This document shows positions 3,725-10,213 of a stretch of DNA of 10,213 nucleotides, one piece after another. Numbering within the stretch: position 1 is the stretch's first letter; every line of letters starts with the position of its first letter. The DNA lies in the NCBI GenBank assembly GCA_002317795.1, contig NVWC01000005.1:11816-22028 (forward strand), written 5' to 3'. The notes below the pieces were generated by a model. The model did not search any database. It had not been told where the DNA came from and saw nothing but the letters and a program-made list of their open reading frames with translations. Made by a program: the position numbers and the translations under genes. Source of the DNA: Nitrososphaerota archaeon (GTDB lineage: Archaea > Thermoproteota > Nitrososphaeria > Nitrososphaerales > Nitrosopumilaceae).

Positions 3725-4240
3725 CTATTTATTTTTTAATCCAATGTTGCTACAAAAATTAACCCAAGATTTACTAAACTCCGTTACTGGGTTTGGGGTT
3801 TCATTAGCTGCTCTGATGTTCTTTATCGTCAGGGCAAACGCTTGAGATGACATGTTGTTTTGGAATTGAATAAACCTTGTAGCATGATCCATTGATTCAT
3901 CAATAATTTTTTTTGTGTAATCTGGCATGGAATAGCCTCTTTCATAGTTATTTCCAATCATTAGGCTTTGTTGAGTAGAAATAACAGTAGAATTTGTTAT
4001 TTTTTTCCAAGATTTCACACATTCTATCTGAAGAGTTTCTACTAGCTCCCTATACTGTTTAATTGCGGTTTCACATGCGCTAAAGAAATTATCTGTGTTT
4101 GGGTTATTAGATTGACTTGAATCTTTTGGGTTATTAGATTGACTTGAATCTTTTGGGTTATTAGATTGACTTGAATCTTTTGGGTTATTAGATTGACTTG
4201 AATCTTTTGGTATTGTTGTTTCATCCATGTTGTTTAACAT
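3725..4240 (-). CDS. Helical thaumarchaeal hypothetical protein, possibly phasin-like, with an N-terminal repeat expansion
   Basis: Amphipathic helical body (FFSACETAIKQY..LQIECVKSWKKITNSTVISTQQ..SWVNF) preceded by (PKDSSQSNN)x4. The start may be ATG 4228. Confidence 0.6.
   Translation of the reverse strand: MLNNMDETTIPKDSSQSNNPKDSSQSNNPKDSSQSNNPKDSSQSNNPNTDNFFSACETAIKQYRELVETLQIECVKSWKKITNSTVISTQQSLMIGNNYERGYSMPDYTKKIIDESMDHATRFIQFQNNMSSQAFALTIKNIRAANETPNPVTEFSKSWVNFCSNIGLKNK
4098..4210. repeat. Perfect 27-bp tandem repeat, 4 copies plus 5 nt
   Basis: Unit TTTGGGTTATTAGATTGACTTGAATCT at 4098, 4125, 4152 and 4179. No spacers; in frame within the CDS. Confidence 0.97.
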
Positions 4241-4498: not shown

Positions 4499-4575
4499 CG
4501 TAATCTCTAATAAGATTACGTAATATTTTAGATCTTGATTAAGAATATTTCGTAATCTTGTATAAGATTATGAAT
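4499..4575. repeat. Two copies of the palindromic site CGTAATCT-N6-AGATTA(C/T)G
   Basis: CGTAATCT ctaata AGATTACG (4499-4520) and tttCGTAATCT tgtata AGATTATGaat (4548-4575), with a weak copy between them at 4528-4549. Confidence 0.8.
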
Positions 4576-6368: not shown

Positions 6369-6396
6369 ATTCATAATCCATAGTAAGATTACGAAA
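6369..6396. repeat. Third copy of the palindromic site, inverted relative to the 4548-4575 copy
   Basis: ATTCATAATCC atagta AGATTACGAAA; the arms match the reverse complement of 4548-4575 at 21 of 22 positions. Confidence 0.8.
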
Positions 6397-7461: not shown

Positions 7462-7603
7462 GTTAAAACAACTCAAAAATTATTCTCGAAATAATACATG
7501 TATAATATCTACGAGAATGATACATAGAAAAAGATCATCAAAAATTTCAAGAATATAGAATATTGTATTACTCACAAAATTTACGTAATCTACCTAACGA
7601 TGA

Positions 7604-7890
7604 CGCAACAATACAAGCAAAAAATACACACAGAATTCTACAATCGTACAAACTAGCAGAAAGTACTAGAAATTACAATTACGAAATAGTACAACGTATG
7701 ATTTTGTACTTTATGTATTATGGTAATCCATAGGTGTATTGTTTATGAAATTCTAGGTGTATGATGTAAAAGTCAGGTGTATTTTGTACAATACGATTTT
7801 GTATTTTCTCATATCTAATACGTACTGAATTTTGTATTTTTTGTACTTGTGATAATTGTATGTGTATTTAGTTTTGTATTTTTGTTTGCG
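7604..7890. repeat. ~290-bp degenerate palindromic region of TACA/TGTA motifs
   Basis: The left end CGCAACAATACAAGCAAAAAATACACA resembles the reverse complement of the right end, CGCAAACAAAAATACAAAACTAAATACACA. AGGTGTAT occurs at 7732, 7755 and 7775. Confidence 0.6.
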
Positions 7891-7975
7891 GAATAATTTT
7901 TGAATTCTTTACTGATATTGAATGACTATAACCTTTGAGAAATTTTACGTTGTAATGATTTCTCTTCAGATTCAT
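7868..7975 (-). pseudogene. cas1: 5' remnant of a second solo Cas1 (thaumarchaeal casposase type)
   Basis: MNLKRNHYNVKFLKGYSHSISVKNSKII|PQTKIQN*. The first 28 aa match the Cas1 first beta-strand pattern (compare LLLSGFGISITVDKRKLVI in the intact gene) and the recalled NHYNVKFLxGYGxSISVKxxKI start of Nitrosopumilus Cas1-solo proteins. Confidence 0.7.
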
Positions 7976-8070
7976 CACTTTGATTTACTAATCCGTCCAA
8001 TGATCACTACAGAAATTGCAATTATGAAAACTACAACAACTGCAATTCGACCATAGTCTGATGCTCGCAT
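7975..8070 (-). CDS. 31-aa single-pass membrane peptide
   Basis: MRASDYGRIAVVVVFIIAISVVIIGRISKSK*: a hydrophobic core with a basic tail. Its stop overlaps the cas1-remnant start as TGATG. Confidence 0.55.
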   Translation of the reverse strand: MRASDYGRIAVVVVFIIAISVVIIGRISKSK

Positions 8071-8082
8071 GGTGTCTGTATT

Positions 8083-8132
8083 ACTAGTTTGAATTCAATG
8101 TTGTTGAAACATTTGAAATTTCTAAAACTAGT
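8083..8132. other. Bulged ~50-bp hairpin immediately after the HTH gene stop
   Basis: ACTAGTTT-GAA-TTCA-ATGTT-gttga-AACAT-t-TGAA-at-TTC-ta-AAACTAGT. Confidence 0.5.
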
Positions 8133-8136
8133 TGAC

Positions 8137-8643
8137 TCAATTCCCATCTCCATAAATTTCATAAAATTCGGGTTCTTCAATTTTATCTTGTATTTTAATT
8201 AGGTTTGTAGAATTTGTTTCCAAAACATGAAAATCTCCATTTACATCTTTAATTCTCTTGTTTTTGAATCGTAATAGTAATTTAGAGTTTCCAGTTTCTA
8301 AAAATCGTTTTACATCATTTAGATATCTTCCAATAATAGATGCATTTCGAGAATCATTAATCTCAATAGATATTTCTCGTCCATTCTCTTTAATCTTCAT
8401 TACACGTGATATTTTGTCATATTTTTTTGGAATCCATTTTTGATTAATTTTCTTAAATCCATTTGTATTGTTAATGACAGTTTTTACTGACATTCCAAAA
8501 TCTTTTGCAATTCTTGATAATGATTTTGTTGATTTTCTAGATTTACTCAAAACTTCAAGTGAGCGTTCTCGGAATAATTTTTGTCTAGATGTTAGATTAT
8601 TCCATGATTTTTTGAAAACTGGAATTCTTTTTCTATTCACCAA
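8137..8643 (-). CDS. Basic HTH DNA-binding protein of the type associated with casposons; probable start TTG 8643 or GTG 8640 (track start 8685)
   Basis: HTH-like segment KSLSRIAKDFGMSVKTV, C-terminal ASIIGRYLNDVKRFLETG..LLRFKNKRIKD..G..HVLET, a GGAG upstream, and divergent position next to solo cas1. Confidence 0.65.
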   Translation of the reverse strand: MVNRKRIPVFKKSWNNLTSRQKLFRERSLEVLSKSRKSTKSLSRIAKDFGMSVKTVINNTNGFKKINQKWIPKKYDKISRVMKIKENGREISIEINDSRNASIIGRYLNDVKRFLETGNSKLLLRFKNKRIKDVNGDFHVLETNSTNLIKIQDKIEEPEFYEIYGDGN

Positions 8644-8925
8644 ATCATACTCTCCAAGCCAGTTTTTGTACAAAGATAGGCACAAATTTGTCTGATTTGA
8701 GTTAAAAAATCACTCATTACAACAAAAAATAAGCTATTTAGTCTTTTTATATCTAAAAGCATTTTTGAGTAAAAATCGTGAAAAATAATTGGACTCAACA
8801 AATGAAATTTATGTAAATTAACCTATTAAAGGTAAAATTGGGTTTTTAGAAAAAATTGGAATTACAAAATAACAAAAGAATGATTTCTACACAACTCCTT
8901 AATGGTATGATCAATACAAAAATCA

Positions 8926-10167
8926 ATGAATCCTCTTTTACTTTCTGGTTTTGGGATTTCAATCACAGTTGACAAAAGAAAACTAGTCATTAACAACAAG
9001 CCAAAAAATGAGAAACTAGAGTTCTATCCACACAAGATTAGTCATGATGGAATAGTAATTGATGGACATTATGGAAATGTTTCTTTTGAAGCATTACGTT
9101 GGTTATCAAAACATGACATTTCACTATCTTTGTTAAACTGGAATGGTAAACTCCTTAGTGTTACATTACCCGATACTCCAAAATCAGGAAGACTACGAGT
9201 ATCACAATATCAAAAGTATTTGGATAATGACTTTCGATTTAAAATAGCAATTAAAATAATTAATAACAAAATTAGTAATTCATTAAATCTTTTAAAAGAA
9301 CTATCAAAGTTTTATGATGTTGTAAATGTTTTAAACTTTAAAAAGACTATTCATAAGGAAGAACAATATTTTAAAAACAATTTAAAAGATTTTAAATTTA
9401 AAACTAGTCATGATTCTTTAAAATATTTAAAATCATTAATGACGTATGAGGGTAGAATGGCCATACTTTACTGGTCAGAACTAGAAAAAATCTTTAAAAT
9501 TTTAAAACCAGAATTTAACTTTAAAACAAGAAAGAGTAAGGAATCATCAAGAAATTATAATGCATCAGATGAGATTAATTCTCTTTTAAATTATGGATAC
9601 TCCATTTTAGAGTCTGAAGTTAGAAAGGCAATTAATTCTGTAGGCCTTGATCCCTCCATCGGGTTCTTACATGAGATTACCCAGAGCAGAACTCCACTAG
9701 TATATGACCTTCAGGAACTATTCAGATGGATTGTAGAACTATCTGTCATTCAATTATTGGAACAAAATAGCCTCAAAAAGTCTGATTTTGTGACTACTGA
9801 GAACTATCATACTAGACTCAAAGAGAATACTGCCAGTCTGCTAATTGATACTATGAGGTTTAATTTTGCCCTAAAGGTACCCTACAAGTCTGGAAAAAAC
9901 TACCTGTATTCAGTGATTCTTGAGGATAATGTAAAACAACTTGCAAATCACATTTTAAACAAAACTACAAAATTCGAGATTGTAATTCCAAAAATATCTT
10001 TACAAAGAAATGATGTTGTATCATTAAGAAACAAGATAGAATTAATGACGCCTGAGCAAAGAAAACAATTAGGAATTAACAAATCAACTTTGTGGTATCT
10101 TAAAAAGAATTTAAAAAATAATAAAAGTTTTAAAATTTATGATAAAGTGTTGACAAAGATTCAGTGA
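8926..10167 (+). CDS. cas1: Solo Cas1 endonuclease (casposase) with a C-terminal HTH extension
   Basis: Catalytic Glu/His/acidic motifs are intact (MTYEGRMA, ASDEINSLLNYGYSILE, GLDPSIGFLHE, LVYDLQE). C-terminal HTH-like TPEQRKQLGINKSTLWYLKK; 413 aa; no cas2 or array nearby. Confidence 0.93.
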   Translation: MNPLLLSGFGISITVDKRKLVINNKPKNEKLEFYPHKISHDGIVIDGHYGNVSFEALRWLSKHDISLSLLNWNGKLLSVTLPDTPKSGRLRVSQYQKYLDNDFRFKIAIKIINNKISNSLNLLKELSKFYDVVNVLNFKKTIHKEEQYFKNNLKDFKFKTSHDSLKYLKSLMTYEGRMAILYWSELEKIFKILKPEFNFKTRKSKESSRNYNASDEINSLLNYGYSILESEVRKAINSVGLDPSIGFLHEITQSRTPLVYDLQELFRWIVELSVIQLLEQNSLKKSDFVTTENYHTRLKENTASLLIDTMRFNFALKVPYKSGKNYLYSVILEDNVKQLANHILNKTTKFEIVIPKISLQRNDVVSLRNKIELMTPEQRKQLGINKSTLWYLKKNLKNNKSFKIYDKVLTKIQ

Positions 10168-10213
10168 ATTCTTTTAAAATTTATAATTTTAAATCGAGAA
10201 ATCGTGCATATTT

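What the first reader, a model, noticed from the sequence alone, without database searches (positions are those of the whole stretch)
8137..10213. HTH-tailed casposase in a Nitrosopumilus-like host with no polB beside the HTH gene
Seen: a C-terminal HTH on Cas1, intact catalytic motifs, and a divergent HTH gene followed only by micro-ORFs. Known (recalled): the C-terminal HTH is described for family 2 casposases, mostly euryarchaeal, whereas described Nitrosopumilus casposons are family 1; casposons normally encode a PolB. Inference: either a family-2-like element in an atypical host, or a polymerase-less, non-autonomous or domesticated casposon.
Basis: partly seen in the sequence, partly recalled or inferred. 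Interest (0 to 1): 0.7.

Follow-up and report, generated by a model that had tools for sequence, protein, structure and literature searches.

The report
Decayed polymerase-less casposon at tRNA-Glu
An intact Cas1-type integrase with a DNA-binding tail sits in the eroded, polymerase-less remains of a self-replicating transposon (casposon) inserted beside a tRNA gene of a Nitrosopumilus-like archaeon, an ordinary fate for a kind of element that turns out to be common in this group.

Summary
Window 8926-10167(+) encodes a 413-aa Cas1 that aligns end to end, C-terminal HTH included, with the solved Methanosarcina mazei casposase. A divergent 182-aa HTH gene (8137-8685, -) is followed only by micro-ORFs. 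No cas2, CRISPR-like array, casposon PolB or HNH was found in the 95.6%-complete assembly.

In relatives from Nitrosopumilaceae the same two genes belong to a PolB-HNH-HTH | (wHTH)-Cas1 module. Those elements are 12-15 kb, bounded by about 36-bp terminal inverted repeats and 14-15-bp target duplications at tRNA-Glu, -Ser or -Pro genes.

The window's genome keeps both kinds of end outside the window: one beside tRNA-Glu(CTC), 3.2 kb downstream, and one 9.6 kb upstream. Both carry the same 14-nt duplication. They lie in direct orientation because an 11.7-kb segment between two inverted repeat copies is inverted, or misassembled, relative to a congener. Undoing the inversion gives an 8.6-kb island without a polymerase.

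A multicopy repeat carrying a stub of a second, HTH-less Cas1 type sits where HNH and PolB should be. A decayed second cas1 3' end lies just downstream.

Verdict: a decayed family-2-like casposon, probably the remains of a tandem array. It is a new member of a known kind. An earlier first-stage note on this same stretch had flagged the second Cas1 remnant.

The parts
8926..10167 (+). Intact casposase gene: Cas1 core (residues ~6-308) plus a C-terminal HTH-bearing tail (309-413)
   Evidence: Pfam E 2.7e-60. 6opm_A matches at E 4.4e-72 over residues 2-412. E175, H249 and D261 are invariant. dN/dS is 0.08-0.09 against the 81%-identical L058 gene.
8137..8685 (-). Divergent casposon HTH gene. In relatives this is the first gene of the HTH-HNH-PolB operon; here the rest of the operon is missing.
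   Evidence: 53% identical to the L048 HTH gene. Relatives align from residue ~15, so the true start is probably internal. Pfam HTH_36 is sub-threshold, E 0.009.
8686..8925 (.). Divergent intergenic region between the HTH gene and cas1. The wHTH gene that precedes cas1 in many relatives is absent.
7993..8136 (.). Interval that holds the truncation point of the module. In relatives the HNH gene starts at or overlaps the HTH stop.
   Evidence: No HNH similarity was detected. Contigs of three runs from two studies run through it: X1 and X2 cover 7883-10021, X5 covers 7909-9431.
7889..7972 (-). Stub (about 25-28 codons) of the N-terminus of a second, HTH-less Cas1 type
   Evidence: tblastx gives 24/25 identical to the C27 Cas1 fragment. 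The genome search places it at C28:19704-19787. Full-length relatives in the genus have 335-378-aa open frames.
7524..7961 (.). Multicopy repeat occupying the place of HNH-PolB. An inverted copy lies at C28:7229-7665.
   Evidence: The core shared by the two C28 copies, window 7579-7912, differs only at N positions. Contig depth there is 2-3x that of the flanks.
7584..7605 (+). Recombinase-site-like palindrome (CGTAATC-N8-GATTACG type, 1 mismatch) inside the repeat
9978..10213 (+). 3' end of cas1 (the HTH-coding part) plus about 46 bp beyond the stop. This segment is repeated elsewhere in the genome.
   Evidence: A 90% copy lies at C11:26556-26797. A 70% decayed copy lies just past the window at C28:22118-22244.

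Best explanation
The HTH gene and the HTH-tailed cas1 are what is left of a family-2-like casposon, most likely of a tandem array of two. The element integrated at the 3' end of tRNA-Glu(CTC), making a 14-bp target site duplication.

In intact relatives the casposase would cut and join the roughly 36-bp terminal inverted repeats into the tRNA-adjacent target, and the element's own family B polymerase would copy it. That mechanism is inferred from published work on family 2 casposases, not shown here.

In this genome the HNH, PolB and wHTH genes are gone. Their place is taken by a multicopy repeat that carries a recombinase-site-like palindrome and a stub of a different Cas1 type. A decayed second cas1 3' end lies just downstream.

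The two surviving element ends are unlike each other. They now lie in direct orientation, because an 11.7-kb chromosomal segment between two inverted copies of the repeat is flipped, in the cell or in the assembly.

The cas1 gene itself is intact and has evolved under purifying selection. The element can no longer replicate itself.
For: **Module membership.**
- By my count, after removing the duplicates listed, about 28 relatives' loci carry PolB-HNH-HTH divergent from (wHTH)-Cas1.
- The roughly 900-aa protein has the exonuclease and polymerase motifs of family B polymerases in a 16-sequence alignment. Its profile hits DNA polymerase alpha and archaeal PolB chains in PDB at E 4e-5 to 8e-3.

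**Ends.**
- In 8 of 9 relatives' loci that have a tRNA gene, a TIR starts 8-10 nt after the tRNA. An inverted partner lies 12-15 kb away, next to a repeat of the 14-15 nt target.
- In G000, nhmmer with that TIR profile hits C28:25187-25220, beside tRNA-Glu at 25231-25305 (E 2e-4), and C28:10320-10356 (E 1.7e-6).
- A 13-mer of the duplicated target has zero-mismatch matches at exactly these two places in C28:1-30000; the printed contexts extend it to 14 nt. The two copies lie on opposite strands.

**Inversion.**
- The repeat copies at C28:7229-7665 and 19339-19776 are inverted and share a 335-bp core that differs only at N positions.
- Against the congener G283, which has a complete casposon at the same tRNA-Glu, the tRNA-side flank aligns reversed and the other flank aligns direct.

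**Losses and decay.**
- There are no PolB, HNH or wHTH hits in the genome.
- A decayed duplicate of the cas1 3' end lies downstream.

**Cargo.** It is typical of mobile elements: AbrB/MazE-like, CcdA-like and SAP-domain proteins, and ferritin.

**Selection.** dN/dS is 0.08-0.09.

**Published parallels.** Tandem casposons at one target, inactivated copies, solo TIRs and 14-bp TSDs are described in Methanosarcina (PMC4779613, passages read).
Against: - The two ends differ in core and inner motif, whereas most relatives' TIR pairs are nearly identical. A single element is therefore unlikely. The internal junction expected of a tandem array was searched for and not found.
- No remnant of HNH or PolB was detected, so their former presence in this copy is inferred from relatives only.
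- No member of the window's own Cas1 clade (13 rows, SH-aLRT 100, quick tree) is known to sit beside a PolB. Context is known for only three of the 13.
- The intact ORF and low dN/dS fit a gene still in use.
- The assembly is 95.6% complete in 37 contigs, so a PolB on unassembled DNA is not excluded.
- The unitig-like contigs cannot say which way the 11.7-kb segment lies.
Confidence: 0.78

Rival explanations
1. The window's Cas1 clade belongs to a lineage of polymerase-less, non-autonomous casposons that are still mobile. An active casposase moves TIR-bounded DNA, and replication or gap repair is left to host enzymes.
For: - The clade is distinct (13 rows, SH-aLRT 100, stem length 0.4; quick tree).
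- None of its three members with known context has a PolB beside it.
- cas1 is intact with dN/dS 0.08-0.09.
- The three contexts differ, as expected of mobile DNA.
- TIR-bounded elements without cas1 or PolB exist: a 2.1-kb TIR-CBS/TrkH-TIR unit in G283.
Against: - One of the three is a broken pseudogene (L082). Another is cut by a contig end 121 bp upstream of cas1.
- The window's copy shows signs of decay rather than a compact design: unlike ends, a foreign repeat at the truncation point, and a decayed duplicate of the cas1 3' end.
- No TIRs were found within 10 kb of five of the six intact solo cas1 copies from the other clade; the sixth, L091, was fetched later and not scanned. The five that were in the tree are scattered among full casposons: 5 changes for 5 rows.
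Confidence: 0.13
2. The casposase has been domesticated by the host, as a solo Cas1 with a cellular role.
For: - The ORF is intact, three invariant residues that I recall as catalytic are kept, and purifying selection is strong.
- It is the only full-length Cas1 in the genome.
- There is no polymerase partner.
Against: - There is no conserved locus. L058 and L082 share nothing with the window beyond cas1 itself.
- Only 2 of 150 congeners carry this clade.
- One copy is a pseudogene.
- The gene lies inside a TIR/TSD-marked island next to a tRNA gene.
Confidence: 0.05
3. The gene is an ordinary CRISPR adaptation gene.
For: The Cas1 family match.
Against: - No Cas2 match at E <= 1 in the genome.
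- No repeat-spacer-like array of more than 3 units anywhere in my crude scan, and none near the gene.
- The best solved relative is a casposase, which aligns through the HTH tail that the CRISPR Cas1 hits do not cover.
Confidence: 0.01

Closest known systems
Family 2 casposons (AciBoo-C1 of Aciduliprofundum boonei; Methanosarcina mazei casposons; NitNCS1-C1 of Ca. Nitrosotalea okcheonensis)
   Same: - Cas1 with a C-terminal HTH, aligned along its whole length to the M. mazei casposase 6opm.
- An accompanying HTH gene.
- TIRs, a 14-bp TSD and insertion at a tRNA 3' end.
- Relatives carry the set published as typical of family 2: a distinct PolB, Cas1, HNH and two HTH proteins (PMC6563490).
- Tandem insertions and inactivated copies, as described in Methanosarcina (PMC4779613).
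   Different: - This copy lacks PolB, HNH and the second HTH gene.
- Its two ends are unlike each other and lie in direct orientation.
- The host is a Nitrosopumilus-like archaeon and the target is tRNA-Glu(CTC).
- I built no phylogeny with the published family 2 sequences. Family assignment rests on the 6opm match, the gene set in relatives and the target type.
Family 1 casposons of Nitrosopumilus (e.g. NitAR1-C1)
   Same: The same host group, and a Cas1 integrase. A stub and a fragment of an HTH-less Cas1 type, common in the genus, lie in this genome.
   Different: - The family 1 casposase lacks the HTH domain (PMC8464041, abstract seen in the listing).
- Family 1 elements carry a protein-primed PolB and mostly target ef-2 (PMC6563490).
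- The window's Cas1 is only about 25-35% identical to that type.
- That the HTH-less type here is family 1 was not tested against named references.
Solo TIRs and degraded casposons of Methanosarcina mazei
   Same: Remnants of casposons kept at the target site, next to the duplicated target (PMC4779613). This genome has further isolated ends on contig C4.
   Different: Here an intact casposase gene survives among the remnants.

Membership tests
Family 2 casposon | Cas1-family integrase with intact core | tested here: met
   Pfam E 2.7e-60. NCBIfam cas1 E 1.1e-54. E175, H249 and D261 invariant in 46 rows; their catalytic role is recalled.
Family 2 casposon | C-terminal HTH domain on the casposase | tested here: met
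   Residues 2-412 align to residues 19-411 of 6opm_A at E 4.4e-72. The CRISPR Cas1 chains among the hits stop by residue ~333.
Family 2 casposon | Family B DNA polymerase (not the protein-primed type) inside the element | tested here: not met
   No tblastn hit with 4 relatives' PolBs. PF00136 hits only an 878-aa gene on contig C35. PF03175 is below its cut-off. PolB is present in about 28 relatives' loci.
Family 2 casposon | HNH nuclease gene | tested here: not met
   No hit with L048's HNH. A remnant under about 45 codons could escape detection. Relatives' HNH genes give only weak DUF968 hits.
Family 2 casposon | Two HTH proteins | tested here: inconclusive
   One is present (8137-8685, 53% identical to L048's). 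The wHTH gene upstream of cas1 is absent here, but it is also absent in some otherwise complete relatives.
Family 2 casposon | Terminal inverted repeats | tested here: inconclusive
   Two TIR-profile hits, at C28:25187-25220 and C28:10320-10356. They differ in sequence and lie in direct orientation unless the 11.7-kb inversion is undone.
Family 2 casposon | Target site duplication of about 14-15 bp | tested here: met
   The same 14 nt abut both ends. The searched 13-mer has zero-mismatch matches at only these two places in C28:1-30000.
Family 2 casposon | Insertion at the 3' end of a tRNA gene | tested here: met
   tRNA-Glu(CTC) lies at C28:25231-25305, and the TIR starts 10 nt after it. A congener has a full casposon at the same tRNA.
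Family 2 casposon | Placement of Cas1 within the published family 2 clade | not tested
   No named family 1-4 reference sequences were available as tool output. The tree holds only Nitrosopumilaceae rows.
CRISPR-Cas adaptation module | cas2 next to cas1, and a CRISPR array | tested here: not met
   No Cas2 in the genome. No array-like repeats near the gene or of more than 3 units anywhere.
Family 1 casposon | HTH-less Cas1 with a protein-primed PolB | tested here: not met
   The window's Cas1 has the HTH tail. No pPolB was found.

The most novel reading that the evidence does not exclude
The window's Cas1 clade (13 sequences at 70-87% identity) marks a lineage of casposons that have dispensed with their own polymerase. 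The casposase would be kept under selection and would move TIR-bounded cargo, its own unit and cas1-less units such as the 2.1-kb TIR-transporter-TIR element of a congener. That would make it a casposase-only, cut-or-copy transposon system in marine ammonia oxidisers.
Probability: 0.13. Interest if true: 0.6.

Novelty: new member of a known kind. Interest (0 to 1): 0.35.

Why it matters
In the papers I searched, casposons of Nitrosopumilus appear as family 1 elements. The only thaumarchaeal family 2 element I found in print is NitNCS1-C1 of Nitrosotalea (searches; passages read).

The data here show that HTH-tailed, family-2-like casposons are common in Nitrosopumilaceae. They have defined TIRs, 14-15-bp duplications and tRNA-Glu, -Ser and -Pro targets. 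They also decay into tandem remnants, solo cas1 genes and cas1-less TIR-bounded units.

This provides candidate ends and targets for biochemical work on a mesophilic marine casposase. It also offers natural examples of a casposase that has outlived its polymerase, which is the step assumed in models of how CRISPR adaptation arose. The window's copy itself is an ordinary decayed element.

Tried and rejected

The contigs of the closest proteins, P0002-P0013, could therefore not be read.
- Scans of genome contigs and metagenome contigs returned only L058/L083 and L082 from that clade. The scan of viral contigs found nothing.
- No tRNA gene and no Rfam family lies in the window.

**Attempts to find the element ends**
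- A generic inverted-repeat search found no TIRs, only AT-rich chance pairs. The ends were found only after aligning the sequence downstream of different tRNA genes.
- The 97%-identical L059/L079 pair did not mark element ends. Similarity fades inside polB and about 20 bp before the cas1 stop, which looks like recombination between two elements.
- No partial copy of the tRNA-Glu 3' end lies inside the island.

**PolB identity and the search for L058's missing partner**
- The relatives' PolB gave no PDB, Pfam or NCBIfam hit as a single sequence, apart from one sub-threshold Pfam hit. Only the 16-sequence profile and the motifs identify it.
- No close partner of the window's HTH gene exists in G353 or G334. 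No contig overlaps the cut end of L058.

**Sequencing runs**
- No RNA holder was listed.
- The contigs laid break at the repeat, so they do not settle the orientation of the 11.7-kb segment.

**Tree and counts**
- The careful tree search did not finish. The tree used is the quick one, with SH-aLRT support only.
- Rows dropped before the tree and the invariance count: L017, L018 and L021 (unpublished genomes), and L033 and L099 (short).
- L045 (395 aa) failed my length filter and is in neither.
- Supplementary files of the papers were not open. The element tables of PMC6563490 and PMC4779613 may list more thaumarchaeal elements than the text I read.
Full report
**Where the window lies**

The window is G000:C28:11816-22028, on a 110-kb contig of a 1.9-Mb, 31% G+C assembly of 37 contigs that is 95.6% complete. 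The contig carries scattered N positions. One cluster of Ns lies right after the window's end.

**Checking the observation**

- ORF 8926-10167(+) encodes 413 aa. It matches Pfam Cas_Cas1 over residues 6-308 at E 2.7e-60.
- Against PDB, the best hit is 6opm_A, deposited as a Cas1 of Methanosarcina mazei; that it is the family 2 casposase structure is my recollection. It aligns to residues 2-412 at E 4.4e-72. CRISPR Cas1 chains score far lower and stop near residue 333. The C-terminal HTH-bearing tail is therefore real.
- E175, H249 and D261 are invariant in 46 aligned rows, including a distant outgroup.
- The divergent 182-aa ORF 8137-8685(-) has only a sub-threshold HTH_36 hit. It is nevertheless 53% identical to the HTH gene of relatives' casposon modules.
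- Beyond it lie only ORFs of 49-56 aa.
- The genome has no Cas2 match and no CRISPR-like array.
- The only family B polymerase is an 878-aa gene on another contig.
- The 30 kb downstream of cas1 hold no polymerase-sized casposon gene.

**What the relatives look like**

- The protein has more than 1,200 database relatives. Many are about 410 aa long and about 60% identical, several per genome in some long contigs.
- In 300 other Nitrosopumilaceae genomes, 19 hold a near-full-length relative at 55-63% identity. Three of those are unpublished genomes. Many more hold fragments.
- I fetched 20-kb neighbourhoods and scored their ORFs against reference module proteins.
- By my count, after removing duplicates, about 28 loci carry PolB (~900 aa)-HNH-HTH on one strand and (wHTH)-Cas1 on the other.
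- Six loci carry an intact cas1 with none of the other module genes within 10 kb.
- The roughly 900-aa protein has no family hit as a single sequence, apart from one sub-threshold Pfam DNA_pol_B match. A 16-sequence alignment, however, shows what I read as the DxE, NxxxFD, YxxxD, KxxxNxxYG and YxDTDS motifs (motif names recalled). Its profile hits DNA polymerase alpha and archaeal PolB chains.
- Family 1 casposases, the kind described for Nitrosopumilus, lack the HTH (PMC8464041, abstract seen in the listing).

**Ends of the relatives' elements**

- tRNA genes (Glu, Ser, Pro) lie near many of these loci.
- The sequence just downstream of the different tRNAs is conserved, which marks it as element DNA, not host DNA.
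- In 8 of 9 loci examined, the 14-15 nt between the tRNA end and this motif recur 12-15 kb away, directly after an inverted copy of the motif.
- The aligned ends give a roughly 36-bp TIR.
- These are therefore bona fide casposons with TIRs, TSDs and tRNA targets. Some follow one another in tandem.

**The window's own element**

- A TIR-profile search hits C28:25187-25220, which starts 10 nt after tRNA-Glu(CTC) at 25231-25305, 3.2 kb beyond the window. It also hits C28:10320-10356, which is 1.5 kb before the window's first base and 9.6 kb before the HTH gene.
- The same 14 nt abut both ends. The searched 13-mer has zero-mismatch matches at only those two places in C28:1-30000, on opposite strands. 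The two ends therefore lie in direct rather than inverted orientation.
- The explanation is a 438-bp repeat. Window 7524-7961 has an inverted copy at C28:7229-7665, with a 335-bp core that differs only at N positions. Flipping the 11.7 kb between the copies puts the ends face to face and yields an 8.57-kb island.
- The congener G283 has a complete casposon at the same tRNA-Glu. Its tRNA-side flank aligns to C28 reversed and its other flank aligns direct, which shows the same inversion.
- Contigs of four runs from two studies support the local sequence. X1 and X2 cover 7883-10021 and X5 covers 7909-9431 without a break. They break at the repeat, whose nodes have 2-3 times the flank depth in X1 and X2. 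Whether the inversion is biological or an assembly choice is therefore open.
- Either way the content is the same. It holds ferritin and small genes, the repeat, the HTH gene, cas1, a decayed second cas1 3' end, and five small genes of kinds typical of mobile elements. There is no polymerase.
- The two ends differ in sequence, unlike most relatives' pairs. A junction of the two end types occurs on contig C4 and in G283. I therefore read the island as the remains of two tandem elements whose inner junction was lost. That junction was not found.

**What replaced HNH-PolB**

- Window 7889-7972(-) encodes about 25-28 codons that are 24/25 identical to the start of a Cas1 fragment on contig C27.
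- That type is 25% identical to the window's Cas1. Its full-length form in 32 of 150 congeners has open frames of 335-378 aa, without the tail.
- Short N-terminal stubs of the same extent recur in other genomes.
- The rest of the repeat has copies on at least eight other contigs (C1, C4, C6, C10, C11, C15, C27, C32), besides the second copy on C28. It carries a CGTAATC-N8-GATTACG-type palindrome.
- How the deletion happened is not shown.

**Is cas1 alive?**

- Against the 81%-identical gene of L058, dN/dS is 0.08-0.09 and is low in every quarter of the gene, tail included.
- This shows selection over the time since the two genes diverged. It does not show present activity.
- In a quick tree the window falls in a 13-row clade with SH-aLRT 100.
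- Context is known for three members. The window has the HTH gene only. L058 is cut 121 bp upstream of cas1. L082 is a broken gene in another TIR-marked region.
- The three flanks share no similarity. That speaks against a domesticated, vertically kept gene.
- The five intact solo cas1 genes of the other clade that were in the tree are scattered among full casposons: 5 changes for 5 rows. This points to repeated decay.

**Comparison and verdict**

- The element works like, and most likely is, a family 2 casposon that lost its replication genes.
- Four features were tested and met: the Cas1 core, the HTH tail, the TSD and the tRNA target.
- PolB and HNH were tested and not met.
- The TIR pair is inconclusive.
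- Placement among named family references was not tested.
- Tandem, inactivated casposons and remnants at the target are known from Methanosarcina (PMC4779613, passages read).
- I found no paper describing family 2 casposons in Nitrosopumilus itself. I could not open the supplements.
- The finding is real and its 'no polB' reading is right. It is nevertheless a new member of a known kind, of modest interest.

Noticed in passing
window 4499-4520, 4551-4572, 6372-6393, 7584-7605; genome-wide: Palindromic sites of the type CGTAATC-N8-GATTACG occur 17 times exactly and 44 times with up to one mismatch in the genome, against 0 for four control palindromes. Four of them lie in the window, against 0.02 expected. 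They bracket single genes (a surface protein, a methyltransferase) and look like tyrosine-recombinase core sites around cassettes.
   Followed up: partly
window 7524-7608 and copies on C32, C11, C4, C10, C6, C15, C1: An ~85-bp unit carrying one such palindrome has about ten copies in this genome. It was not found in any of the relatives' loci I fetched.
   Followed up: partly
L048:13173-15302 (genome G283): A 2.1-kb unit bounded by casposon-type TIRs sits in tandem after a complete casposon. It carries only a CBS/TrkH-like transporter gene, so it is a cas1-less, polB-less derivative.
   Followed up: partly
C11:26556-26797 (L002:1474-1715, minus strand): A free-standing 69-codon ORF is 86% identical to the last 64 residues (the HTH part) of the window's Cas1. 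Similarity runs about 30 bp past the stop.
   Followed up: no
Many loci (e.g. L076, L080, L081, L112-L127): Truncated cas1 copies are mostly C-terminal pieces that start between residues ~160 and ~245. The 3' part of the gene appears to be kept preferentially in remnants.
   Followed up: no
L044, L045, L046, L047, L063, L091: Intact solo HTH-tailed cas1 genes have no module genes within 10 kb. No recognisable TIR was found in the five that were scanned (L091 was not). Several sit among arrays of small secreted proteins. Within a genome the copies share only the ORF, at about 82% nucleotide identity.
   Followed up: partly
C4:7068-7200: Two partial tandem TIR copies are followed by a target-like 13-mer and a TIR of the other type. 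This is a junction of two casposon remnants with no tRNA gene within the first 20 kb of the contig.
   Followed up: partly
window 3725-4240 (-): A 171-aa ORF has four tandem copies of a 10-residue unit near its N-terminus and a sub-threshold DUF4279 hit.
   Followed up: no
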